DNA of 24,000 nt from NCBI RefSeq assembly GCF_004570865.1, contig NZ_SPQS01000041.1:1-24000 (forward strand), given 5' to 3'. Both the position numbers and the translations under genes were made by a program. Positions 5,218-23,880 of this stretch are shown here, piece by piece (within the stretch, counting starts at the first letter, position 1; the number at the start of each line of letters is the position of its first letter). Below the pieces are notes generated by a model. The model did not search any database and was not told the origin of the DNA. It was given only the letters and a program-made list of their open reading frames with translations. Origin of the DNA: Bradyrhizobium frederickii. Its GTDB lineage: Bacteria; Pseudomonadota; Alphaproteobacteria; Rhizobiales; Xanthobacteraceae.

Positions 5218-6009
5218 ATGTCGATCACGATAACTCATAGCGCCAAGTCTGCCGCTGAGGACCGTACTCAGCCGTTGGGGAATTTCAAACTTGCAGCAGG
5301 AGTCACTCTGGCGGTGCTAGCGCTGATGGTGTTCTGGCGCATCTTTCAGCAGGTCTATGCTTGGAGTGCCGGCCTGGATTCGACTGAGCCCGCGTTCGAT
5401 GCCGCCTGGATGACGTTGCTGAAGGTTGAGCTTAGCGTCATCCCTTTGCTCTGGGTGGTGACCTGGGCGTATCTATGGTTCACGCGAGACCGCAATCTTG
5501 GCGCGCTCAAACCGCGGGAAGAGCTCCGGCGCTACTTCAATCTGGTCCTGTTCAACTTCGTCTATGCCTTTTGCGTCTGGTTCGCTACCAGCTTCTTTGC
5601 CGAGCAGGACGCCTCATGGCATCAGGTTGTGGTCCGGGATACAAGCTTCACGCCAAGTCACATCGTGCTGTTCTACGGCACCATGCCACTCTACGTGCTG
5701 TTTGGCGTGGGATCATTTCTGTACGCGATGACGAGGCTGCCGAAGTTCGCAACGCAGATCTCAATTCCATTCGTGCTCGCGGTTGTAGGTCCGTTTCTAA
5801 TATTGCCGAACTTGGGCTACAACGAGTGGGGTCATGCCTTCTTCCTGATGGAAGAGGTGTTCTCCTATCCCTTGCACTGGGGTTTTGTCGTGATGGGCTG
5901 GAGTGTGCTGGCCTTGGGTGGGCTCCTGATCCAGATCGCGATGCACATGCTTGAAGTGATCGGGCGGCTTTCTCAAGAGGACCAAGCTTCGGTCGCCACC
6001 CAGCGCTGA
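5218..6009 (+). CDS. pmoC: Copper membrane monooxygenase subunit C (PmoC/AmoC family)
   Basis: An AGGAGGAG Shine-Dalgarno precedes the ATG at 5218. The protein is polytopic. Hallmark blocks are EQDASWHQVVVRDTSFTPSHIVLFY and YNEWGHAFFLMEEVFSYPLHWGF. Metal ligands D131/H135/H148 and N202/H206/H220 have exactly the spacing of the M. capsulatus PmoC ligands. Confidence 0.95.
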   Translation: MSITITHSAKSAAEDRTQPLGNFKLAAGVTLAVLALMVFWRIFQQVYAWSAGLDSTEPAFDAAWMTLLKVELSVIPLLWVVTWAYLWFTRDRNLGALKPREELRRYFNLVLFNFVYAFCVWFATSFFAEQDASWHQVVVRDTSFTPSHIVLFYGTMPLYVLFGVGSFLYAMTRLPKFATQISIPFVLAVVGPFLILPNLGYNEWGHAFFLMEEVFSYPLHWGFVVMGWSVLALGGLLIQIAMHMLEVIGRLSQEDQASVATQR

Positions 6010-6129
6010 AACCGCTTATGAACCATTAATCGCGGACAGCCCGGCATGCAAAGCTGCCGTCTTGTAATCAGTCGGGCGTCGGCTTCCAGGAAGGTCGATC
6101 TCAACTCGGTAAAGAATTAGGAGGAAGCC

Positions 6130-6987
6130 ATGCAAGGAGGAACGTCTGTGAGACTGTATGGCCTCGAATGGCCTAAAGAGTCAGCAAGAATCTCAAGAGT
6201 GTTTGACCTTCTCGTCGCCGCTATCCTTTTTCTGGCCGTCTCCGGCGCATTCCACCTGCATTACATGCTGACCGCAGGGGACTGGGATATGTGGATCGAT
6301 TGGAAAGACAGACAGTGGTGGGTCACCCTGACTCCAATTATGGCCATAACATTCCCTGCAGCTTTGCAGTATGTGTTTTGGACGAAATTTAGACTTCCAA
6401 TCGCCGCTACATTTGCGGTCGTTTGTCTTCTGTTCGGTCAGTGGATAAATCGATATTTCGGTTTCCACCTGTGGTCGTACTTTCCGATGAGCGAGGTCAT
6501 TCCAGCGCTGCTGATACCTGGCGCACTAGTCCTCGATGTCGCTCTTTTGCTGACCGGGAATTTTCTGTTCACGGCGATGTCCGGCGCCTTTGCATTCGCA
6601 CTGCTTTTCTACCCGACTAACTGGTTTTGGCTGGCGCCATATCGGCTACCCGTAGAAGTGATGGGGCAGCTTGTTTCCGTGGGCGATTACATCAGCTATG
6701 CATTCACCCGCACCGCGCTGCCTGAGTATATCCGGCTGATAGAGCGGGGCACGCTTCGAACTTTTGGTGGCCACTCAGCCATTATCGCGTCCTTTTTCTC
6801 GGCGTTCGTATCCATACTGATGTATTTGGCGTGGTGGCATATCGGAATGCTCCTCGCTCGTGTGGTAACGACGCCAAACGCCCTGAAGCATTTCATGGGG
6901 CTCACCGATAAGGATGAGCCAGCTGAGGCAGCCCAAAAAGCGATAGACGGTACCAGCCTGCAAGGGCGCTCCGTCGCAGCCGAATGA
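6130..6987 (+). CDS. pmoA: Copper membrane monooxygenase subunit A (PmoA/AmoA family)
   Basis: A TAGGAGGA Shine-Dalgarno precedes the ATG at 6130. Hallmark blocks are HLHYMLTAGDWDMWIDWKDRQWW, GQWINRYFGFHLWSYFP and TALPEYIRLIERGTLRTFGG. There is a C-terminal extension of about 35 aa compared with the PmoA sequences I remember. Confidence 0.95.
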   Translation: MQGGTSVRLYGLEWPKESARISRVFDLLVAAILFLAVSGAFHLHYMLTAGDWDMWIDWKDRQWWVTLTPIMAITFPAALQYVFWTKFRLPIAATFAVVCLLFGQWINRYFGFHLWSYFPMSEVIPALLIPGALVLDVALLLTGNFLFTAMSGAFAFALLFYPTNWFWLAPYRLPVEVMGQLVSVGDYISYAFTRTALPEYIRLIERGTLRTFGGHSAIIASFFSAFVSILMYLAWWHIGMLLARVVTTPNALKHFMGLTDKDEPAEAAQKAIDGTSLQGRSVAAE

Positions 6988-7014
6988 TTCTGCTGGGACT
7001 GTGGAGGACTCCAA

Positions 7015-8337
7015 ATGAGAACATTCTGTTTCCACGAAAGCTCATGCGTGCGTGTAGTCTTATCGGCAGCGGCGGCGATCATGCAGATCGGAATACTGAT
7101 CTTCGTCCCAGATGCTGCTCTGGCGCATGGTGAGCGTAATCAGGAGCCGTTTCTGCGGATGCGAACGGCTCATTTTTACGATGTGAAGTGGAGCACGAAC
7201 GAAACTCCCGTGAACGGTGAAATCGTTGTCACCGGCAAGTTCCGACTCTTCCCGATCTGGCCAGTCAACCTACCCCTTCCCGAAGCGGCCTTTCTGGGAA
7301 ACGGGACGCCGGGCCCGGTGCTAGCCCGAACCGAGAGCTACATTAATGGCGTCCCTGCAATTCAGTCCACCAAACTGGAGTTGAACCGGGACTATGAATT
7401 CAAAACAGTGCTCAAAGGACGAGTGCCAGGCCACCATCACGTCCATCCGATGATCAACGTGATGGGAGCCGGGCCGCTGCTCGGACCGGGAAACTGGCTG
7501 ACGGTGACGGGGAACGAAAGCGACTTCAAGCTTTCAATCAAAACTCTCAGTGGCGAGACTATCGACAATCTCGAAACCTGGGGCCTTGGCAGGGTGTTCT
7601 TCTGGCATGGCTTGTGGGTTGCGATCGCCATCGTGTGGCTTGTCTGGTGGTTGCGCCGGCCGCTCCTGCTGCCTCGTTTTCGCGCGTTGACGGAAAAAGG
7701 CGGCGATCGATCTCAGCTCGTTACCAGCACCGATCGCCTATTCGGGGCCGGTTTGCTCGTGGCGACGATTCTCATCGTATTCTTCGGCTTTCAGGCGACC
7801 GACACCGCTTATCCAAGGACGGTGCCGCTGCAAGGGTCCCGCGCAACCGTCGAGCCCCTACCGGAAGTGCCTGAGCAGGTCAAAGTTGCGGTCAACAAGT
7901 CAAACTATGACGTCCCTGGCCGCTCGCTTCGTATGAACGTGACACTGACGAACAATGGGAGCTCGTCAGCACAGCTTGGCGAGCTCTTAACTTCCAATCA
8001 GCGCTTCATCAACCATGAGGTTAGCCAGGCAATGGCGACGGTGGATCCGAATTACCCCAAGGAATTGCTTCCTCCGAATGGGCTAAAGGTGAGCGACAGC
8101 CGACCGCTCAAGCCGGGTGAAACGAAGACAGTCGATATCGAAGCGGCCGACGCGGCATGGGAGACGGAGCGCTTGAGTAGCCTGATCAACGATCCGGACA
8201 ACACGTTGGGAGGACTGTTGTTCTTCTATGACGAGCACGGCAAGCGGACAATCTCAAACGTCAGCGGCCCCATGGTCCCTGTATTCACCGATCCCGACAA
8301 CCGCACGGCTGAGAATCCGACAGGAGGTGCGGGTTGA
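7015..8337 (+). CDS. pmoB: Copper membrane monooxygenase subunit B (PmoB/AmoB family)
   Basis: A GGAGGA Shine-Dalgarno lies upstream. The signal peptide ends ALA|HGERNQEPFLRMRTAHFYDVKWS. GHHHVHPMINVMGAGPLLGPGNW contains the H-x-H copper ligands. There are two internal TM helices (VFFWHGLWVAIAIVWLVWW and LFGAGLLVATILIVFFGF) and a C-terminal cupredoxin-like half. Confidence 0.95.
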   Translation: MRTFCFHESSCVRVVLSAAAAIMQIGILIFVPDAALAHGERNQEPFLRMRTAHFYDVKWSTNETPVNGEIVVTGKFRLFPIWPVNLPLPEAAFLGNGTPGPVLARTESYINGVPAIQSTKLELNRDYEFKTVLKGRVPGHHHVHPMINVMGAGPLLGPGNWLTVTGNESDFKLSIKTLSGETIDNLETWGLGRVFFWHGLWVAIAIVWLVWWLRRPLLLPRFRALTEKGGDRSQLVTSTDRLFGAGLLVATILIVFFGFQATDTAYPRTVPLQGSRATVEPLPEVPEQVKVAVNKSNYDVPGRSLRMNVTLTNNGSSSAQLGELLTSNQRFINHEVSQAMATVDPNYPKELLPPNGLKVSDSRPLKPGETKTVDIEAADAAWETERLSSLINDPDNTLGGLLFFYDEHGKRTISNVSGPMVPVFTDPDNRTAENPTGGAG

Positions 8338-8900
8338 ACACCGTAAAAGCCGCAGTGCTTGGAATTCCATCTTTGCTCCTCATCCTAGACTGCGGTGGGG
8401 CGCGGCCAGCGATTGCACACGGGGGAGTATCGATGGAGAAAGACGTGTGCAAGCTTCGCGCAGGGCCCTATATGATGCATTTTACCGGATACCAGCCGGT
8501 CAAGCAGGGGAATCAGGAGTTTTGCGAGGACATTCCGGAAATCGGCCGCACCGTCATCGTCTTGGATACCATCGGCGATGTGCTACGTGATCTGCCCATC
8601 GAGGTGCGGTTGTTGCGAGACGCCGGCAACGACGTAGACAGCGAGGCCGTCCTTCGAATCCCGCCAAAAAAATATCCGACAGGCTCACTATCGTTTCAGT
8701 ACACGTTCCCCGAATCCGGGCGCTTTGTGGGCCTCGTGACAGTCGGCGACGGACCGAAATACGTATCGAGATTTCCGTTTTCGGTTGGTTACGGCAACGG
8801 GATTTGGGTCCGATATAGGGACAGTTTCGCAATCGTTCTAGGAACGCTGGCAGCCGGGGCCGCCATGTTTTGGTACTCCACGTTGCGGAAGGAAACCTAG
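8334..8900 (+). CDS. PmoD/AmoD-like periplasmic copper protein with C-terminal membrane anchor (family assignment tentative)
   Basis: The TTG start overlaps the pmoB stop (TTGA at 8334-8337) and follows GGAGGTG at 8323-8329. The protein has a signal peptide (AIA|HGG), a beta-rich domain with exactly two Cys (C39, C64) and a C39-x7-M47-x-H49 motif, and a C-terminal TM helix (FAIVLGTLAAGAAMFWY). The existence of the ORF is well supported. The family call rests on architecture, motif and gene position. Confidence 0.7.
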   Translation: MNTVKAAVLGIPSLLLILDCGGARPAIAHGGVSMEKDVCKLRAGPYMMHFTGYQPVKQGNQEFCEDIPEIGRTVIVLDTIGDVLRDLPIEVRLLRDAGNDVDSEAVLRIPPKKYPTGSLSFQYTFPESGRFVGLVTVGDGPKYVSRFPFSVGYGNGIWVRYRDSFAIVLGTLAAGAAMFWYSTLRKET

Positions 8901-8944
8901 GCTATCACTTTGTCGACCGCTGACTTGCAATAAGGGGCACACGC

Positions 8945-9472
8945 ATGTCTCACGAAAAACACGGAAACAAGAGCGATTGCATCCGAGTAGCGACGGGGCC
9001 ATCACTTGATCATGCTGGCACGCCAAACTTGACCGCCGGCACCGGCAGGGCGCGAACTAGGCTGATTCAAGGGACGGTAAAAGAACTCTCGTCCGCAAGC
9101 AGGCGTCCGGTATCAGCGCTTGGCATCACGTTGCTGTGCGTTGGCCTCGTGTGCCTGCCGACAGCTGTCTCTGCACATGCCGCTCTCGTGAAGTCCGATC
9201 CCGCGAGCCGGGCAGTGTTAGCTCATTCGCCGCAGCAGATCGAACTGTGCTTCAACGAACGCATAGAGCTCAAGTTTTCGAAAGTGGAGCTCAAGAACGC
9301 CAACGGTCAGTCGCTAACGCTCGGCGATTTGAAAGCAGGCAATGATCCGAAGTGTATGGTAACGGCAGTATCTGACATTAGACCAGGCAGCTATTCGGTT
9401 CATTACCGCGTGCTCTCGCAAGACGGGCATGTGGTGGACTACGGCTATCAGTTCACCGTCGAGGAACGTTAG
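8945..9472 (+). CDS. copC: CopC-family periplasmic copper-binding protein
   Basis: An AAGGGG Shine-Dalgarno precedes the ATG at 8945. The hydrophobic segment ALGITLLCVGLVCLPTAVSA is followed by |HAALVKSDPA, the CopC N-terminal H-x-x-L-x-x-S-x-P signature. The C-terminal SQDGHVVDYGYQFTV is also typical. There is no Met-rich Cu(I) loop, so this is the Cu(II)-only type. An unusual cytoplasmic leader of about 55 aa precedes the hydrophobic segment, so the true start is uncertain. Confidence 0.85.
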   Translation: MSHEKHGNKSDCIRVATGPSLDHAGTPNLTAGTGRARTRLIQGTVKELSSASRRPVSALGITLLCVGLVCLPTAVSAHAALVKSDPASRAVLAHSPQQIELCFNERIELKFSKVELKNANGQSLTLGDLKAGNDPKCMVTAVSDIRPGSYSVHYRVLSQDGHVVDYGYQFTVEER

Positions 9473-9481
9473 GCATGCGGA

Positions 9482-11473
9482 ATGACGGTATTGTTTCCAG
9501 CTCTGTGCAAGGCCATCGCTGACATTGCGCTTGCATGGGTCATAGGCGGAGTACTCTTTCTGTTGCTGGCAGGGCCGTCTTCCGATCCGTTCCTTGCCGC
9601 TTGGCAAAGACGAGTGAAGGTGAGCTTTCTCTGGGCAGCCAGCATTCACCTCTTCGCTACCGCTGGGTTATTTATCGCTCAAGTCGTGGTTGCGACAGAT
9701 ATGGCACTACCGGAGATAGTAGCGTCTGGCCAGACGCTGGAAAACTTCGGATTTGACACACATTACGGTCGGATCACGCTTGCAAGGTTAGCGCTCTCTC
9801 TTGTTTTGCTGCTGCCGACAGCGATCCTAATTCGCGGCAGGTCGAGGGAGCAGCAACGTTCAGCTTCAATCGTGACAGCCGGGACAGCAGCACTGATCGC
9901 GCTGATTGGTCCACTTGCTGGACACGCCGCCGGGGAAGACGACAGCCGTTGGCTCGTTCCGACCTATCAACTTCACGTGCTCGCGGTTTCTGCTTGGCTT
10001 GGGGCCTTACCGGCTTGGATCTGGCTGGTGGCTTCGGTCGCTGTCACCCCCACGGAGACTCGGCGCGTTTATGTCGCAGCGACGCTGCGACGTTTCTCCC
10101 AACTAGCAATCGGTTTCGTGGTCGTCGTCGTCACATCAGGTTTGGTGCTCGCGTTTAGCTCAGCTAGTTCGGCTGGCGAGTGGCTTGGCACGACCTACGG
10201 TCAACTAATTATAACGAAGCTTGCTCTACTTGCATGCATCCTGTTGGTGGCCAATCGGATTCGCACGCGCTTCCTACCCGTCATGGAAACCGTAGGAGCA
10301 AAACCCGCGGCTTTTCTTGCAGGAGCTGGATGGGCAGCAACTGAATTATTTTGCGGTGTTCTGATCGTCGGCTGCGCAGCCGCGCTCTCTTCAGTCATAC
10401 CAGCACGACATGATCAGCCCATCTGGTGGCTGCCGTTTCGCTTTTCGATCGAGGCCACGTGGCCGGCGTGGCCGACGCCCGTTATCGCGGCGGGCGCCTT
10501 CTCACTAGCACTATTGTCACTCTTCTGGGGCCTGCTCGTTTGTTTGAGAAAGCCGCAAAAGGTAAAAGCAGTTGCAGCAAGCGCCGCCGCCGTTATTTCG
10601 GTCGTAGGCGGTCTGTCGCAGATATCCGTGCAAGCCTATCCCGATACTTACCGCCGCCCGTCGGTTGCCTATTCGACGATATCAATAACCAATGGAAAGC
10701 GTCTATTTGCCCAGAATTGTGCGGATTGCCACGGCAGCGGAGGGCTTGGCGATGGTCCGGCGGCATCGACCCTTCCCAAGCCGCCCGCGAATTTGAGCGA
10801 ACCGCATACTGCGCTGCACACGGCCGGCGACATGTTTTGGTGGCTTAGCCATGGAATTCCAAAAAGCGGCATGCCCGGATTTGCTGATGTATTGGACGAA
10901 CAGGCCCGCTGGGATGTGATCAACTTCCTGCGGACGTTTTCAGAGGGATTTCAGGCGCGCCTCCTGTCGCCTGAAATCGTACCCGATCATCCGTGGCTGG
11001 GGGCTCCCAATTTTTTCTTAGAGGACGAAAATGGGGCGGAGAGGGAGCTGAAGGACTTCCGTGAGCAAAGCAATGTGCTGCTCGTGTTTCCCGAAAAGTC
11101 CGATGCAATGCGCGTTGAACAGCTACGCCTTGAGCAGAATAGATTCCGGAAAGAACGATTGTGGGCGATTATCGTGTCGCCGGACGCAAAGCTGGCGGCG
11201 GGCGTCCCGAATGTCCGGCGTGGAGCACAAGAGGTTAGAGAAAGTTACGATCTGCTCTCCCGGAGCACTACAAATCGTGGAGATCCCAAGCGTTTGGAAA
11301 TGGGAAGACATTCCATGGAATTCCTAATCGACAGGTTCGGATACATCCGTGCGCGCTGGTTGCGGGAGGAGGACGAATGTGGTTGGGAAAATTCCGACGA
11401 GCTGATCTCGCGGGTCCGAGTTCTCAATAGAGAGCCCAAAATTCTCCCGCCAGCCGCTCAACATGTGCACTGA
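9482..11473 (+). CDS. copD: CopD-family membrane protein fused to a c-type cytochrome domain and a Cys-less thioredoxin/peroxiredoxin-fold domain
   Basis: The first ~395 aa are a multi-helix hydrophobic CopD-like domain located immediately after copC. Heme motif CADCH is at nt 10718-10732, with a distal Met candidate in KSGMPGF. The C-terminal ~150 aa read APNFFLEDENGAERELKDFREQSNVLLVF...SMEFLIDRFGYIRARW, an AhpC/TSA-like pattern, but the usual Cys position reads FPEKSDAMRVEQL. Confidence 0.8.
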   Translation: MTVLFPALCKAIADIALAWVIGGVLFLLLAGPSSDPFLAAWQRRVKVSFLWAASIHLFATAGLFIAQVVVATDMALPEIVASGQTLENFGFDTHYGRITLARLALSLVLLLPTAILIRGRSREQQRSASIVTAGTAALIALIGPLAGHAAGEDDSRWLVPTYQLHVLAVSAWLGALPAWIWLVASVAVTPTETRRVYVAATLRRFSQLAIGFVVVVVTSGLVLAFSSASSAGEWLGTTYGQLIITKLALLACILLVANRIRTRFLPVMETVGAKPAAFLAGAGWAATELFCGVLIVGCAAALSSVIPARHDQPIWWLPFRFSIEATWPAWPTPVIAAGAFSLALLSLFWGLLVCLRKPQKVKAVAASAAAVISVVGGLSQISVQAYPDTYRRPSVAYSTISITNGKRLFAQNCADCHGSGGLGDGPAASTLPKPPANLSEPHTALHTAGDMFWWLSHGIPKSGMPGFADVLDEQARWDVINFLRTFSEGFQARLLSPEIVPDHPWLGAPNFFLEDENGAERELKDFREQSNVLLVFPEKSDAMRVEQLRLEQNRFRKERLWAIIVSPDAKLAAGVPNVRRGAQEVRESYDLLSRSTTNRGDPKRLEMGRHSMEFLIDRFGYIRARWLREEDECGWENSDELISRVRVLNREPKILPPAAQHVH

Positions 11474-19468: not shown

Positions 19469-20543
19469 TCATCCCGCCTCGCTGGCATAGTGAAGCGCGC
19501 GCAGGAGCGTTACCCGTTCCCGCAGGTTATGAAGGAAAAGACCGTCGAGCGGATCGCCCGGCCTGGTCGGGCTTGGCAGCCAGCGCAGCGCGTCGTTGCC
19601 GTCGCGCTCGGCGCGCTGGCGTTTCAGCGTCTTCATGAAGGCGCTGGTTTCGAGATAAATCACCTTGCGGAAATGTCTGCGCAGAAAAGCGATCACTTCG
19701 GGATCGCCCCGCACAACGATATCGAGTTCCCGGCCTGCCGCAGCCGCAAGACCGGCAAGCTGTTCAAGGTGCCAGCTGCGGCGCGCACGGCGTCCCGGGC
19801 CGGTCGTAAATTCATATGATAATGTCTCGACTTCAGTGCGAGCCGCGATCTCGGCGGCCCAGCGTTCGAAGTCTCGCTCGGTCCTGCCATGGGCATGAAG
19901 GGCGCAGGGAATGCCGCCCCGGGCGAACTCTTCGAAGACGATGAGAATGCGTTTCAGCGCATGCATATCATCGGTGCGGGGCTGGTCCAGCACCACGCTG
20001 AAGTTCGGCGTCGTGACCATGTCGATGCCGATGCCGCGCATCTGCTCGATTATACGAGCACGGTCTTCGCCCAGAGTCCACCACGGCTCGATGCGGTGAT
20101 CCTGATGCACGCCGCTGAGGATAATCCGGGCATTTTCCGGGATGTGGTATGCAGCGCAGAGCGAAGCGCGGTCTTTGAATTTGAGCGCCCTTCCGCGGAA
20201 GCTGACAATGTCCGGCAGGCGCAGGGCGAACGTCGAGCCTGCCAGCTGCCCGACGCGGCCGCTTCCATGGTACACGAGCGGCACAATATCGTCGCTGATC
20301 TGGTGCCTCACGAGCGGCGCGCGGTACGTTGTCGAAGTCGAAGCCGCCGATCTCGCGCAACTGCTCGGCAAAGCGAACGCTGGGCGCGTTTCTGCAAACC
20401 CGGGTGAATTTGTCAGGATTGTTGCAGCAAAGGCCAAGGCAATCGAAAAGGGAGTCCTTCACGCACAACCCGCCGCAGGCTGCGAAGTGATGGCAGTCGT
20501 GACAGCCAAGCGAAAGCGAATATGCCGTCGGGTCGTGGGTCAA
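19469..20543 (-). pseudogene. Cys-rich (8 Cys in ~45 aa) N-terminal module fused to an alpha/beta domain; frame broken near 20311-20327
   Basis: Frame A (20543 down to about 20320) reads MTHDPTAYSLSLGCHDCHHFAACGGLCVKDSLFDCLGLCCNNPDKFTRVCRNAPSVRFAEQLREIGGFDFDNVPRA. Frame B (down to 19469) continues PLVRHQISDDIVPLVYHGSG...ARIILSGVHQD...GIDMVTTPNFSVVLDQPRTDDMHALKR...GIPCALHAHGRTERDFERW.... The PNFS...D.PR....N..R...GIP segment faintly recalls DUF4417-type proteins (low-certainty memory). An ATG at 20592 has a strong Shine-Dalgarno (GAGGTGG) and an ATGA overlap with the upstream gene, but gives only 17 codons. This suggests a second frame break. Confidence 0.5.
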
Positions 20544-20589
20544 GCATTGATGATGGTCTCATCGCTGCGTGTGTCGAAATGAGCCGAAA

Positions 20590-20928
20590 TCATTTAATTT
20601 CCACCTCAACCGTGTTCGAAAGCGGGTTGACGCGGATGATCTCGCCAACCGCAATGCCAGCGCCCACAGAGAGGGCCTTCAGGATGTCAGACGGTGCAGA
20701 GAACTGCACCGAGTTTCCCACACAGCCCAGAAGCTTGCCCTTGTCCGCCTGTAGGATGTGGTCGCTGCCGACAGATGGGGCAACGCCCTTTTCCATCACA
20801 GCGATGAACGAGCGGGGATGGTCTTCGGGGGAGCGGGTAAAGAGATCGAGCGTGGCGAGCGCAACGCGCTGGCGATCAATGTACTTGTCGTGCGAACGGC
20901 GGCGCTTTTTGAGTTCTTCGGCCCCCAT
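20590..20928 (-). CDS. Hypothetical protein (112 aa)
   Basis: The ATG at 20928 overlaps the stop of the upstream wHTH frame (TGATG). The sequence is MGAEELKKRRRSHDKYIDRQRVALATLDLF...VGEIIRVNPLSNTVEVEIK. I recognise no family. Confidence 0.55.
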   Translation of the reverse strand: MGAEELKKRRRSHDKYIDRQRVALATLDLFTRSPEDHPRSFIAVMEKGVAPSVGSDHILQADKGKLLGCVGNSVQFSAPSDILKALSVGAGIAVGEIIRVNPLSNTVEVEIK

Positions 20929-21223
20929 CAATTGGCCTCCGTGAACAAAGGTTGATAAAACTTCGCGCGGCCTTGGGTAAATTCAAGGATCAGGCCCGCT
21001 GCCGCCAGCGATGCAAGGCGGTTATTCCAGACCGTAGGAGCGGTTACGCCGTCCGCTTCGCCGAACATGCGATTCAAGTCGCCGGCAGTTGTGCGGCCAA
21101 GGCTGGTGACGCGCTCAAACGTGGATGCCTGCTTCTCCTCTCGAACGCGGTTAGTTTGCTTCGCGAGCCGAAATCCTGCGACTCAAGCTGACCGCGCAGT
21201 TTCATGACGTGAGCGTTTTTCAT
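20928..21223 (-). pseudogene. Winged-helix DNA-binding protein, frame broken near 21150-21170
   Basis: The ATGs at 21223 and 21205 open a frame (MKNAHVMKLRGQLESQDFGSRSKL..) that stops after 49 codons. A second frame reads ..NRVREEKQASTFERVTSLGRTTAGDLNRMFGEADGVTAPTVWNNRLASLAAAGLILEFTQGRAKFYQP, a clear wHTH pattern (recognition helix plus L..L...GL....... wing), but it has no start codon of its own. Confidence 0.45.
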
Positions 21224-21375
21224 GGAAATTATGTTGAGAGATTATTTTTCATGGAGTACGATTGATTTTCGACATTTCGCAGCGGGGTGAAGGAAATTCA
21301 GGACTTGAGATTGTTTTTCAGGGACATCGGGATATAGCGTGCAATTTTCAGGACCAGTGAGTGTTTTTCATGATC
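21199..21375. promoter_or_regulatory. Array of eight TTTTTCAKG-type direct repeats in the divergent wHTH/fic control region
   Basis: The motif cores are GTTTCATGA, TTTTTCATGG, TTTTTCATGG, GATTTTCGAC, AAATTCAGGA, TTTTTCAGGG, AATTTTCAGG and TTTTTCATGA. The conserved C falls at 21203, 21221, 21250, 21270, 21299, 21319, 21349 and 21369, giving spacings of 18, 29, 20, 29, 20, 30 and 20 nt. The region is locally AT-rich. Confidence 0.75.
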
Positions 21376-22877
21376 GGCGGCTTCCAGAGACAGCCGCCCC
21401 GGCTGGCTATGCCGCCCTGATCCACGCCTGCGAGCTGTCCGTTCCGGTCCCCCGACTCTTGTCAGCCATCGGGTCCAGGCACCGCATCATCGAGCAGGAT
21501 GGCTGGCGCGTCTACACGCCACGCCACGCGCCCGAAGCTTCTCTTGAGGGGCATCTGACTTTCGCCCTCAAGTATGAGGGGCTGGACCTTGCCGTTCTGA
21601 AGCGGATCTTCCTCGCCGTGAAGGAAGGGGATATCGCCGAACTCGTGCGCCAAAAGCCGACCGGCCTTTACACGCGCCGTATCTGGTTCTTGTACGAGTG
21701 GCTGCTTGGCCGGGAGTTGCAGCTGCCGTCCGCGGATAAGGTATCGTATGTGGATGCTGTCGATACCGATCTTCAATTCGGCGGGACGGGACAGAACTCG
21801 ACCCGGCACCGCGTTCGCAACAATCTGCCGGGTACGCCGGAATTCTGTCCGCTCGTGTTCAGGACCTCCGCGTTGAACGAATTCATTGCGCAGGACTGGA
21901 AGGAGCGCGCGCGCGCCGTCGTCAGCGAAGTCCCGAAGGATTTGCTCGCGCGGACGGCGGCATTTCTTCTGCTGAAGGATTCGAAGTCCAGTTACGTGAT
22001 CGAGGGAGAGAGGCCGCCGCAGGACCGCATTCAGCGGTGGGGTCGCGCCATCGGCGAGGCAGGCCGCGCGCCGCTCGACGCGCAGGAATTCCTGCGGCTC
22101 CAGGGCATCGTCATTGGCGACGAACGCTTCGTGAAGATGGGCTTCCGCCAGGAAGGCGGCTTTGTCGGCGAGCATGACCGCGATACGCAACGGGCCATTC
22201 CCGATCATATCAGTGCGCGGCACGAAGATATCGCCTCGCTTATGGCGGGCCTGATCGCGTTCGATCATAGCGCGGAGAACGATCTCGATCCCGTTGTCGC
22301 CGCAGCGGTGCTGGCGTTCGGCTTTGTCTATATTCATCCATTCGAGGACGGTAACGGGCGCATCCATCGTTACCTGATGCACCATGTCCTTGCCCGCCGT
22401 GGCTTCAATCCACCGGGACTGCATTTCCCAGTCTCTTCGGCCATCCTCGACAGGATCACAGAATACAAGAGTGTGCTCGAAAGCTATTCCAGCAGATTGC
22501 TTCCATGCGTTCAGTGGGAAGCGACTCAGAAGGGCAACGTGAAGGTCCTGAACGATACCGCCGATTTCTACCGGTTCTTCGACGCGACGCCGCACGCGGA
22601 ATTTTTGTACGAATGCGTGCGACAGACGATTGAGCAGGACCTTCCCAACGAAACTAACTTCCTCCGAAGCTTCGACGCCTTCCGGGCAGGCATCGAGAAC
22701 ATGATCGATATGCCCGAGCGTACCCTCAACAATCTCTTTGGTTTCCTTCGGCAGAACGATGGGAAGCTATCGAAGCGTGCACAGGAAAACGAATTTACCC
22801 AACTGACTCGAGACGAAGTTCAGCAAATCGAGGCGCTCTATGCCGAATCCTTCGGCGAAGGAGGCGGCGGTGCGTAA
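21339..22877 (+). CDS. Fic-domain protein (class II, with intramolecular inhibitory motif)
   Basis: The canonical Fic motif HPFEDGNGRIHR (H-x-F-x-D/E-G-N-G-R-x-x-R) is present. An upstream SYVIEG matches the (S/T)-x-x-x-E-(G/N) inhibitory-helix motif. The GTG start at 21339 is uncertain because repeats 7 and 8 of the array fall inside the first 12 codons. Confidence 0.9.
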   Translation: MQFSGPVSVFHDRRLPETAAPAGYAALIHACELSVPVPRLLSAIGSRHRIIEQDGWRVYTPRHAPEASLEGHLTFALKYEGLDLAVLKRIFLAVKEGDIAELVRQKPTGLYTRRIWFLYEWLLGRELQLPSADKVSYVDAVDTDLQFGGTGQNSTRHRVRNNLPGTPEFCPLVFRTSALNEFIAQDWKERARAVVSEVPKDLLARTAAFLLLKDSKSSYVIEGERPPQDRIQRWGRAIGEAGRAPLDAQEFLRLQGIVIGDERFVKMGFRQEGGFVGEHDRDTQRAIPDHISARHEDIASLMAGLIAFDHSAENDLDPVVAAAVLAFGFVYIHPFEDGNGRIHRYLMHHVLARRGFNPPGLHFPVSSAILDRITEYKSVLESYSSRLLPCVQWEATQKGNVKVLNDTADFYRFFDATPHAEFLYECVRQTIEQDLPNETNFLRSFDAFRAGIENMIDMPERTLNNLFGFLRQNDGKLSKRAQENEFTQLTRDEVQQIEALYAESFGEGGGGA

Positions 22878-23474: not shown

Positions 23475-23639
23475 CGCAGGAATTAGCACGACACGGGACG
23501 GCGATAAGCCTGTCGAATATTCGTTTCAAGAACCGCGTGAACTGAGAAGTCGACCATCGAAAATGCTCAGGTTTTGAAACGGACTATATAGTGCGAGAAG
23601 TCGGTCGGCAGAGCAACCTGCCGTTGGGTGGCATCCACA

Positions 23640-23880
23640 GGGGCAAAATGCTGCACCGCCTCCCGAAATGCATCAAAAACTAAGGCCGGCGTTCCCGGAC
23701 GCGCACACGGCCTCCGTAAGGCTGGCGCGACGATGGCCGCGGAGAACCTCGCGACGCCTCACCAGCTCAAGGCGATATTCGGTTGACGTACCCTCTCTCA
23801 GGCGGAGCTCTACACCGAGAAAGTCCGACAGCAAGTACTGGCAGGTGGCGCGATGAACCTCATCGCGTTCGTTCCCGCTG
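23640..23880 (+). pseudogene. Tyrosine recombinase C-terminal fragment with nonsense mutation
   Basis: The fragment reads ..KAGVPGRAHGLRKAGATMAAENLATPHQLKAIFG*RTLSQAELYTEKVRQQVLAGGAM. The HGLRKA box and the (A)E.YT box containing the catalytic Tyr are present. A TGA sits where Trp or His normally follows the Gly. No N-terminal part is present. Confidence 0.55.

What the first reader, a model, noticed from the sequence alone, without database searches (positions are those of the whole stretch)
21199..21375. Helically phased array of eight TTTTTCAKG repeats between divergent wHTH and fic genes
Eight copies of a 9-10-nt motif (plus strand TTTTTCA[T/G]G, minus strand C[A/C]TGAAAAA) occur in the same orientation. 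The centre-to-centre spacings are 18, 29, 20, 29, 20, 30 and 20 nt. This gives four dyads, each with about two helical turns between its members, repeated every 49-50 bp. All sites therefore lie on roughly the same DNA face. Units 21293-21329 and 21342-21378 are also similar beyond the core (AAATTCAGGACTTGAGATTGTTTTTCAGGGAC versus AATTTTCAGGACCAGTGAGTGTTTTTCATGATC). The first two repeats contain the two candidate ATGs of the wHTH gene. The last two lie within the first 12 codons of the annotated fic ORF. This looks like a cooperative operator or iteron-like array, and the adjacent wHTH protein is the obvious candidate binder. It would control both transcription units.
Basis: seen in the sequence. 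Interest (0 to 1): 0.65.

Follow-up and report, generated by a model that had tools for sequence, protein, structure and literature searches.

The report
Conserved repeat array controlling fic gene
The repeats are real and ancient: seven evenly phased copies of a short DNA word cover the promoter, the translation start and the first codons of a widespread stand-alone Fic toxin gene, most likely as binding sites through which the Fic protein shuts off its own gene, and not as sites for the neighbouring wHTH gene, which here is a dead remnant.

Summary
The array exists as described. Seven of the eight copies (window cores at 21217, 21246, 21266, 21295, 21315, 21345 and 21365) recur at the same 29/20/29/20/30/20 spacing upstream of about 80 Fic homologues (62-98% identity). 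These come from Alpha- and Gammaproteobacteria and from MAGs labelled Acidobacteriota, Binataceae and Nitrospinaceae. The eighth copy (21199) is not conserved.

The array brackets a conserved sigma-70-like promoter (TTGAGA-17-TACGAT, 21234-21262), the start-codon region and codons 3-11. Codon choice in those codons is forced to TTT-TCA and GTT-TTT, against the usage in the rest of the gene.

No neighbouring gene is conserved. The "wHTH gene" is a start-less remnant left by a 473-bp deletion, and it has homologues in only 3 of 104 loci.

The repeat unit changes with the Fic subclade, even within the single host genus Rhizobium, yet all copies within a locus stay alike. This points to a reader encoded in the locus, and the Fic protein is the only candidate.

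Best reading: a cooperative auto-operator of a single-gene class II Fic (PADLOC PDC-S24). Binding is inferred, not shown, and no DNA-binding domain could be identified with confidence.

The parts
21216..21372 (+). Whole conserved array: seven direct repeats R1-R7, family consensus a.cgtTTTTCAyGg
   Evidence: Site positions relative to R7 are -148, -119, -99, -69, -49, -20 and 0 in 82 sequences (the window and 81 loci). Spacing of 20 bp holds in 77 of 78 cases; the other gaps are 29 or 30 bp. All 88 TTTTCA-N14-TTTTCA pairs found in 575 kb of loci lie in this zone.
21198..21206 (+).
   Evidence: No conserved site at this offset in the 82 sequences: 1 exact and 6 one-mismatch matches, which is the background level.
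21216..21224 (+). R1 (TTTTTCATG), immediately upstream of the -35 element
   Evidence: Exact match. Conserved site: 62 of 82 sequences have at most one mismatch to the core.
21234..21239 (+). -35-like hexamer TTGAGA
   Evidence: The only promoter-like hit in 20900-21500. TTG is conserved at -12 to -10 relative to the R2 core in 63 loci.
21245..21253 (+). R2 (TTTTTCATG), inside the 17-bp promoter spacer
   Evidence: Exact match. Conserved in 63 of 82 sequences with at most one mismatch.
21257..21262 (+). -10-like hexamer TACGAT
   Evidence: TAnnAT is conserved at +11 to +16 relative to the R2 core (T 52, A 52, A 51, T 40 of 63 loci).
21265..21273 (+). R3 (ATTTTCGAC), at the predicted transcription start, beginning 4 nt after the -10 element
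   Evidence: Conserved position (core TTTTCA in most loci; 45 of 82 with at most one mismatch). The window copy is degenerate.
21294..21302 (+). R4 (AAATTCAGG), a weak site in the 5' UTR
   Evidence: Family consensus aAATTCA; the weakest site everywhere.
21314..21322 (+). R5 (TTTTTCAGG), the translation-initiation site. In most lineages it reads TTTTCATGG and holds the start ATG. In this window ATG has become AGG and a GGGA Shine-Dalgarno-like stretch follows.
   Evidence: the aligned column reads TTTTC-ATG in most loci.
21344..21352 (+). R6 (ATTTTCAGG), equal to codons 3-4 (TTT TCA)
   Evidence: Phe is TTT in 78 of 78 cases and Ser is TCA in 72 of 80, against 31% and 12% elsewhere in the same genes.
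21364..21372 (+). R7 (TTTTTCATG), equal to codons 9-11 (GTT TTT CAT)
   Evidence: Val is GTT in 68 of 73 cases and Phe is TTT in 78 of 80, against 20% and 31% elsewhere.
21339..22877 (+). fic gene: a 512-aa class II Fic protein (motif HPFEDGNGRIHR; inhibitory motif S-YVI-EG), family PADLOC PDC-S24
   Evidence: Pfam Fic E 3.8e-16. PDC-S24 E 2.5e-208. AF2 model pLDDT 91.9. Best solved relatives are CbFic2 and SoFic.
20928..21135 (-). Remnant of a STAS-like + wHTH gene (C-terminal wHTH part only); not part of the system
   Evidence: Relative to L003 there is a 473-bp deletion, with the junction at window 21133-21135.

Best explanation
The array is the cis-regulatory operator of the fic gene. Seven direct repeats of an asymmetric unit of about 13 bp (core TTTTCA) alternate at 20 and 29-30 bp. 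That is roughly 2 and 3 helical turns, so all sites face about the same side of the DNA.

The sites lie just upstream of the -35 element (R1), in the promoter spacer (R2), at the transcription start (R3), in the 5' UTR (R4), on the ribosome-binding and start-codon region (R5) and in codons 3-11 (R6, R7).

The most likely reader is the Fic protein itself. It would bind head-to-tail and cooperatively, coat about 150 bp, and block both promoter use and early elongation. A toxic, self-inhibited AMP-transferase would thereby be held at a very low, self-limited level. This would replace the antitoxin-mediated autoregulation of two-gene Fic/Doc systems.

Shown here:
- the array, its phasing and its conservation;
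- its overlap with a conserved promoter-like element;
- nucleotide-level selection inside the CDS;
- the absence of any conserved partner gene;
- repeat-unit changes that track the Fic subclade.

Inferred, not shown:
- that a protein binds the array;
- that this protein is Fic;
- that the effect is repression.
For: 1. Seven sites keep fixed offsets and spacings in 82 sequences at 62-98% protein identity, from several phyla.
2. TTTTCA is about 90-fold enriched in the array zone. All 88 TTTTCA-N14-TTTTCA pairs in 575 kb lie there.
3. Conserved TTG-17-TAnnAT elements sit with R2 in the spacer and R3 at +1. R1 and R2 therefore lie upstream of the predicted start and would not be transcribed from this promoter.
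4. Synonymous codons are forced to the motif inside the CDS. In the sister clade with a different unit, the same Val-Phe-Gln residues use GTC TTC CAG (L085).
5. No conserved flanking or small ORF was found. The wHTH gene occurs in 3 of 104 loci and is a deletion remnant in this window.
6. The unit is uniform within a locus but differs between Fic subclades in the same host genus Rhizobium. L085 has TTTTCGAT, L103 has ATTTCCACA and L104 has TTTnGCGACAT. Conversely, the unit stays the same across phyla within one subclade. This pattern requires a reader encoded in the locus.
7. There is precedent. The Fic protein CccR represses its own promoter (PMC9755527), and CbFic2 binds DNA, which switches its activity (PMC10628234). 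The AF2 model's best solved matches are this CbFic2/SoFic class.
8. No Rfam hit and no consensus RNA structure were found.
Against: - No DNA-binding domain could be identified in the Fic protein. The C-terminal profile hits no HTH family or DNA-binding chain.
- The family-specific N-terminal domain (residues 1-125) gives only non-significant Foldseek matches to the wHTH antitoxins Rv2827c and AbiEi (E 0.3-0.65, TM 0.39-0.40).
- Direct repeats do not fit the two-fold symmetric dimers seen in solved Fic-wHTH proteins.
- The promoter is a consensus match only. If transcription starts upstream of R1, all seven sites would be in the mRNA.
- No binding, transcript-mapping or expression data exist.
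- Many loci come from MAGs, whose taxonomic labels may be wrong.
Confidence: 0.55

Rival explanations
1. The array is read by a host-encoded factor (a global regulator or nucleoid-associated silencer), or it acts through intrinsic curvature from T-tracts phased at about 10 bp. Fic itself would play no part in recognition.
For: Each unit carries a T4-5 tract, and the 20/29-30 spacing puts the tracts nearly in phase. The region is AT-rich (43% GC, against about 58% for the window), as expected for a horizontally acquired gene. No DNA-binding domain was found in Fic.
Against: Conservation extends to the non-T positions (C, A, and the flanking cgt...yG). The same unit is kept in hosts from different phyla. 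Three different units occur in one genus, Rhizobium, each uniform within its locus. A host factor or curvature alone explains neither pattern.
Confidence: 0.17
2. The repeats work at the RNA level. UUUUCA units in the 5' UTR and first codons would bind a protein (possibly Fic) or the ribosome, and control translation or mRNA stability.
For: R3-R7 lie downstream of the predicted start. R5 overlaps the Shine-Dalgarno/start codon, and R6-R7 lie in the first codons. All units are on the sense strand.
Against: R1 and R2 are as well conserved as the others but lie upstream of, or within, the predicted promoter. Spacing in multiples of about 10 nt is a property of duplex DNA. There is no Rfam match. 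RNAalifold predicts 0 consensus pairs on 60 sequences. The R3-R5 segment folds no better than shuffles (mean z -0.45).
Confidence: 0.12
3. One reading: the adjacent wHTH protein binds the array and controls two divergent transcription units.
For: In this window a wHTH-encoding fragment lies next to the array. Its homologues are annotated as STAS-like/DUF4325 proteins.
Against: The window copy lacks its N-terminal half and its start because of a 473-bp deletion. Homologues are present in only 3 of 104 fic loci, while the array is present in essentially all. In L003 the intact gene starts about 175 bp upstream of R1.
Confidence: 0.02
4. The array is an iteron-type replication origin or a recombination/transposition site of a small mobile fic cassette.
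For: It consists of phased direct repeats. The fic gene plus the array appears as a solo module of about 1.8 kb in unrelated contexts, on chromosomes and plasmids.
Against: No rep, transposase or recombinase gene is conserved next to it. No flanking inverted repeats or target duplications were noticed. The array overlaps the promoter and the coding start of fic in a fixed register, which fits gene control.
Confidence: 0.03

Closest known systems
CccR of Yersinia pseudotuberculosis (a Fic toxin that is also its own transcriptional repressor; PMC9755527)
   Same: A single polypeptide with a Fic AMP-transferase domain that, as inferred here, binds its own promoter and represses it. Both are class II-like Fic proteins, and the fold class matches (one search lists 7xux and 3eqx among the hits).
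   Different: CccR is about 380 aa with a clear C-terminal HTH. It binds one inverted repeat (AGATAATCAT-N26-ATGATAATCT) as a dimer. The protein here is 512 aa, has an extra N-terminal domain of 125 aa and no recognisable HTH. Its target is seven direct repeats spread over about 150 bp and reaching into the CDS. Binding has not been shown.
CbFic2 / SoFic class (Fic proteins with DUF4172 and a C-terminal wHTH; PMC10628234, PMC12249575)
   Same: These are the best structural matches to the AF2 model (8cil E 1e-7, TM 0.65 on the target). CbFic2 binds DNA, which switches its activity. SoFic is a single-gene anti-phage system, and the present family is also a PADLOC defence candidate.
   Different: Sequence similarity is confined to the Fic core. 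CbFic2's DNA binding was not shown to depend on a particular sequence (PMC10628234). E. coli SoFic has a small downstream antitoxin, AS1, and no such conserved ORF exists here. No repeat array is reported for these proteins in the papers read.
Type II toxin-antitoxin operators (for example phd/doc, where Doc has the Fic fold)
   Same: A toxic enzyme gene under tight negative autoregulation through repeated operator sites over its promoter, with cooperative occupancy.
   Different: In those systems the DNA reader is a separate antitoxin that binds palindromic sites. Here there is no second gene, and the sites are direct repeats that continue into the coding region.
Plasmid iterons (RepA, TrfA and pi-type origins)
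   Same: Several direct repeats in one orientation, helically phased, read by a protein encoded next to them. The unit sequence co-evolves with that protein.
   Different: There is no replication initiator, DnaA boxes or AT-rich unwinding element. The array is found on chromosomes as well as plasmids, and it is locked to the promoter and start codon of fic.
PADLOC PDC-S24 (phage defence candidate, single gene)
   Same: The Fic protein matches the model end to end (residues 19-506, E 2.5e-208).
   Different: The model describes only the protein. No function, trigger or regulatory DNA is described for it in the literature searched (one search found 0 papers).

Membership tests
Fic/Doc (Fido) AMP-transferases, class II | Active-site motif HxFx(D/E)GNGRxxR | tested here: met
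   HPFEDGNGRIHR at residues 333-344. H333, P334, D337, G338, N339, G340 and R341 are invariant in 116 sequences. Pfam Fic E 3.8e-16.
Fic/Doc (Fido) AMP-transferases, class II | Inhibitory helix motif (S/T)xxxE(G/N) N-terminal to the core in the same chain | tested here: met
   S218-Y-V-I-E222-G223. E222 and G223 are invariant and S218 nearly so. The motif definition is from PMC9755527.
PADLOC PDC-S24 | Full-length match to the PDLC04966 HMM | tested here: met
   E 2.5e-208, 691 bits, residues 19-506 on profile positions 4-490 of 497.
PADLOC PDC-S24 | Anti-phage activity | not testable with these tools
   This is a candidate family only, and no paper was found. Some loci sit next to OLD-like ATPase, R-M or integrase genes.
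CccR/SoFic-type Fic-wHTH autoregulators | C-terminal winged-helix DNA-binding domain | tested here: inconclusive
   The whole-model Foldseek alignment spans nearly the full length of CbFic2 (379 columns on a 365-aa target). The C-terminal profile (residues 405-512) finds no HTH family or DNA-binding chain. The model shows three helices and no wing.
CccR/SoFic-type Fic-wHTH autoregulators | Palindromic operator bound by a dimer | tested here: not met
   The sites are direct repeats in one orientation.
CccR/SoFic-type Fic-wHTH autoregulators | Demonstrated binding to, and repression of, its own promoter | not testable with these tools
   This needs EMSA or footprinting and reporter assays.
Iteron-containing replication origin | Adjacent gene for a replication initiator that reads the repeats | tested here: not met
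   No conserved neighbour was found in the 83 main-clade sequences compared. The only constant gene is fic.
Iteron-containing replication origin | Multiple phased direct repeats | tested here: met
Type II toxin-antitoxin module | Adjacent small antitoxin gene co-transcribed with the toxin | tested here: not met
   No conserved ORF of at least 70 aa in the flanks, and none of at least 25 aa within 700 nt downstream.
Known structured RNA (Rfam) | Match to a covariance model or a conserved secondary structure | tested here: not met
   0 matches at E up to 1. 0 consensus pairs in 60 sequences.

The most novel reading that the evidence does not exclude
The array may be more than an operator. It could be a DNA scaffold that serves as the missing 'antitoxin' and sensor of a one-gene defence system. 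Fic molecules would be held as an inactive head-to-tail filament on their own gene. This echoes the DNA-induced switch of CbFic2 between AMPylation and deAMPylation. Phage-induced changes to the DNA or to transcription would then release or activate the enzyme. The forced codons at the N-terminus would tie the protein's first residues to its own docking sites.
Probability: 0.12. Interest if true: 0.85.

Novelty: new variant of a known kind. Interest (0 to 1): 0.62.

Why it matters
Single-gene Fic proteins are toxic enzymes and candidate anti-phage systems, and how they are kept silent without an antitoxin is unclear. It carries a fixed, seven-site, helically phased repeat array over its promoter, start codon and first codons.

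The repeat word co-evolves with the protein. That gives a direct, testable handle on self-regulation: a defined 160-bp fragment, defined point mutations, and natural specificity variants for swap experiments. It also gives a clear example of regulatory DNA dictating codon choice, and it flags an uncharacterised N-terminal domain as a possible new DNA-reading module.

Tried and rejected
- The wHTH protein as binder was rejected. The gene is a deletion remnant and occurs in 3 of 104 loci.
- A conserved partner or antitoxin gene was sought by clustering flank ORFs (at least 70 aa) and downstream small ORFs (at least 25 aa). None was found.
- A known RNA family was sought. Rfam gave no hit.
- A conserved RNA structure was sought. 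RNAalifold found 0 pairs on 60 sequences. Some loci show hairpins with R4 in the loop, but the fold energy is not better than shuffles overall.
- A DNA-binding domain in Fic was sought.
  - Pfam and NCBIfam hit only the Fic core.
  - The C-terminal profile against PDB and Pfam was negative.
  - The N-domain model against PDB by Foldseek gave only weak matches to AbiEi and Rv2827c.
- Per-segment identity was compared between subclades with different units. Residues 1-60 diverge most, but this is also true between loci with the same unit, so it is not decisive.
- A residue-to-motif mutual-information analysis was considered and dropped, because phylogenetic confounding would dominate.
- A literature search for PDC-S24 found no papers. 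Searches on Fic autoregulation and operator repeats returned only CccR as a self-repressing Fic protein, which binds a single inverted repeat.

Full report
OBSERVATION. Taking the hexamer that aligns with TTTTCA, the copies start at 21199 (GTTTCA), 21217, 21246, 21266 (TTTTCG), 21295 (AATTCA), 21315, 21345 and 21365. All are on the + strand, and the spacings are 18, 29, 20, 29, 20, 30 and 20.

Four copies match TTTTTCAKG exactly. Chance predicts 0.48 in the 24-kb window, and none of 100 shuffles reached four. A fifth copy has one mismatch and three are degenerate. Five of the seven + strand TTTTCA hexamers in the window fall in 21217-21370. Only 1 of 200,000 composition-matched shuffles of the local 191 nt reached four or more. 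The repeat finder also recovers the longer units.

CONTEXT. The window carries ribonucleotide reductase genes, a pmoCAB/amoCAB-type copper monooxygenase operon and copCD-like genes. The ORF 21339-22877 is a Fic protein (Pfam E 3.8e-16). Its closest relatives are from Bradyrhizobium (98-99% to B. niftali).

THE ARRAY BELONGS TO FIC, NOT TO THE wHTH GENE.
- A megablast of the region against plasmids hit Bradyrhizobium plasmids from query position 718 (window 21217) onward. The similarity therefore starts at the repeats, not at the gene.
- Those loci have the same repeats and no annotated upstream gene.
- I fetched 80 genomic loci encoding relatives of 62-98% identity. They come from Alpha- and Gammaproteobacteria and from MAGs labelled Acidobacteriota, Binataceae, Nitrospinaceae and Bryobacterales. 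All show the array.
- Anchored on the last copy, TTTTCA-like sites pile up at 0, -20, -49/-50, -69, -98 to -100, -118 to -120 and -147 to -149.
- Chained site-finding gives seven conserved sites, R1-R7. The spacings are 20 (77 of 78), 29/30, 20, 29/30, 20 and 29/30. The consensus is a.cgtTTTTCAyGg. R4 is weak everywhere (aAATTCA).
- In 575 kb of fetched loci, all 88 TTTTCA-N14-TTTTCA pairs lie in the array zone. Single TTTTCA hexamers are about 90-fold denser there than elsewhere.

No neighbouring gene is conserved. Clustering all flank ORFs of at least 70 aa gives no family present in more than 6 loci, and those few are spurious ORFs across the conserved DNA. No ORF of at least 25 aa downstream is shared by more than 10 loci.

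Homologues of the window's wHTH ORF occur in 3 of 104 loci. In L003 the intact gene encodes a 196-aa STAS-like (DUF4325) + wHTH protein. The window aligns to L003 in two blocks, 20500-21135 and 21133-21450, which skip L003 2322-2794. This is a 473-bp deletion that removed the start and the N-terminal domain. The "frameshifted wHTH gene" is therefore a dead remnant. Its supposed ATGs are the CATG of repeats R0 and R1 read backwards, in DNA that is intergenic in L003.

ANATOMY RELATIVE TO EXPRESSION SIGNALS. The only promoter-like match in 20900-21500 is TTGAGA-17-TACGAT at 21234-21262 on the fic strand. Across 63 loci, TTG at -12 to -10 and TAnnAT at +11 to +16 relative to the R2 core are conserved, with a 17-bp spacer. 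The sites are therefore placed as follows:
- R1 abuts the -35 element.
- R2 fills the spacer.
- R3 starts 4 nt after the -10 element, at the expected start.
- R4 lies in the 5' UTR.
- R5 holds the start ATG in most lineages (TTTTCATGG). In the Bradyrhizobium group that ATG is lost or out of frame, a Shine-Dalgarno-like stretch follows R5, and GTG 21339 is used.
- R6 and R7 are codons 3-4 and 9-11.

NUCLEOTIDE-LEVEL SELECTION INSIDE THE CDS. In 82 sequences with a mean CDS GC content of 60%, codon use at the two in-CDS sites departs sharply from the rest of the same genes:
- Phe is TTT in 78 of 78 and 78 of 80 cases, against 31% elsewhere.
- Ser is TCA in 72 of 80 cases, against 12% elsewhere.
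- Val is GTT in 68 of 73 cases, against 20% elsewhere.

In the sister clade, whose unit is different, the same Val-Phe-Gln residues are written GTC TTC CAG (L085).

NOT AN RNA ELEMENT, AS FAR AS CAN BE TESTED. Rfam gives no match at E up to 1. RNAalifold on 60 sequences from R3 to 36 nt past R7 predicts no pairs. The R3-R5 segment folds no better than shuffles (mean z -0.45), although a few loci have hairpins with R4 in the loop.

THE UNIT CO-VARIES WITH THE PROTEIN. More distant homologues also carry upstream direct repeats at 20/29-30 (or 50) bp spacing, but with other words:
- The 56% clade has GTGAnnn(a/t)TTTCAC.
- A clade found in Rhodospirillales and Terriglobia MAGs and in Sinorhizobium has tTTTCGAC.
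- Rhizobium L085 has aatcgaTTTTCGATg.
- Rhizobium L103 has TAATCnATTTCCACA.
- Rhizobium L104 has AATCGTTTnGCGACAT.
- Pantoea has tatcgTTTTCGGGCA.

Seventy-nine metagenome loci show the same picture, with a generic unit TAATCG-TTTTTCA-T. In many of them the last two sites again sit 22 and 2 nt before the conserved Phe codon.

The copies within a locus match each other, while loci differ. The differences follow the Fic subclade and not the host: there are three units in one genus, and one unit across phyla. This pattern calls for a specificity determinant encoded in the locus, and the only constant product is Fic.

THE PROTEIN.
- It matches the PADLOC model PDC-S24 end to end (E 2.5e-208). PDC-S24 is an uncharacterised single-gene phage-defence candidate, and no paper on it was found.
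- It has the Fic motif HPFEDGNGRIHR and the class II inhibitory motif S-YVI-EG.
- An AF2 model built from 116 sequences has pLDDT 91.9.
- Its best solved matches are CbFic2 (8cil, E 1e-7, TM 0.65 on the target), SoFic, a Mycobacterium marinum Fic and 7xux. For CbFic2, SoFic and CccR, a C-terminal wHTH is documented in the papers read (PMC10628234).
- CbFic2 binds DNA and is thereby switched (PMC10628234). CccR represses its own promoter through an inverted repeat (PMC9755527).

I could not pin down a DNA-binding domain here. The C-terminal profile finds nothing relevant. The family-specific N-terminal domain (model pLDDT 88.5) gives only non-significant matches to the wHTH antitoxins Rv2827c and AbiEi. 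Residues 1-60 are the most divergent segment between subclades, but that is also true within a subclade. Candidate contact elements are a conserved basic hairpin S-x-RHRVR-x-N (residues 154-162), R113/R114, and the LSKKRR patch.

MECHANISM PROPOSED. Fic binds its own array head-to-tail. Twenty bp is about 68 Å and 29-30 bp is about 100 Å, which puts all sites on roughly one face of the DNA. Binding would occlude the promoter, the start site and the early transcribed region, giving tight negative feedback on a toxic enzyme that has no antitoxin gene. The steps from "a protein binds" onward are inference.

Rivals considered:
- A host factor or intrinsic curvature from phased T-tracts. This is contradicted by the clade-specific units.
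- An RNA-level element. This is contradicted by R1 and R2 lying upstream of the predicted start, and by the lack of conserved structure.
- The wHTH model. This is contradicted by the comparative data.
- An origin or recombination site. No such genes are present.

NOVELTY. Autorepression by a Fic protein is known (CccR), and phased direct-repeat operators are known. What I did not find described is this family-wide architecture:
- seven sites in strict 20/29-30 alternation;
- running from -50 to +100 relative to the predicted start;
- fixing the codons of the protein's N-terminus;
- co-evolving with a stand-alone Fic defence candidate.

I rate it a new variant of a known kind. It is of moderate-to-good interest, mainly because it makes the regulation of single-gene Fic systems directly testable.

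Noticed in passing
window 5218-11473 (+): A pmoC/amoC, pmoA/amoA, pmoB/amoB-type copper monooxygenase operon, followed by CopC and a CopD-cytochrome c fusion. The genome's fic gene is 98-99% identical to that of Bradyrhizobium niftali. I did not check whether such an operon is known in Bradyrhizobium.
   Followed up: no
window 20928-21135 (-), junction at 21133-21135: The 'wHTH gene' is the C-terminal remnant of a 196-aa STAS-like (DUF4325) + wHTH gene. A 473-bp deletion relative to L003 removed its start and N-terminal domain.
   Followed up: yes
window 19469-20543 (-): A Cys-rich ORF (CHDCHHFAACGGLC...) is split over two overlapping frames (191 aa and 322 aa) and has no Pfam, NCBIfam or PADLOC hit. 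The L003 copy is also broken. It looks like a decaying gene of unknown function.
   Followed up: partly
window 23628-23786 (+): A short ORF ends in ...HGLRKAGATMAAENLATPHQLKAIFG. From memory this resembles the catalytic C-terminus of a tyrosine integrase, which would mark a genomic-island edge. It has no Pfam hit at E up to 1.
   Followed up: no
L024, L034, L035, L039, L042, L047, L071, just downstream of fic: A shared ORF beginning MHLSRITIENFRNFSKL...GENKVGKSN (AAA/OLD-like ATPase by its look) follows fic in 7 loci. Other loci have integrase or restriction-modification genes nearby. This fits a defence-island setting.
   Followed up: no
L103:740-1000 (Rhizobium sp.): The repeat unit of this subclade, TAATCnATTTCCACA (6 copies), ends in TTTCCACA. 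From memory this resembles a DnaA-box-like word. It is probably coincidence, but it was not examined.
   Followed up: no
window 21314-21341, compared with other loci: The start codon has moved. Most lineages start at the ATG inside R5 (TTTTCATGG). In the Bradyrhizobium group that ATG is mutated (AGG in this window) or out of frame, and GTG 21339 is used, while the R5 DNA word is kept.
   Followed up: partly
several loci, between R3 and R5 (for example L025, L031, L041, L072): Locus-specific hairpins place the weak site R4 in the loop, with different stem sequences in different loci. This is not significant overall (mean z -0.45), but it could modulate R4 or mRNA 5'-end stability in some lineages.
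   Followed up: partly
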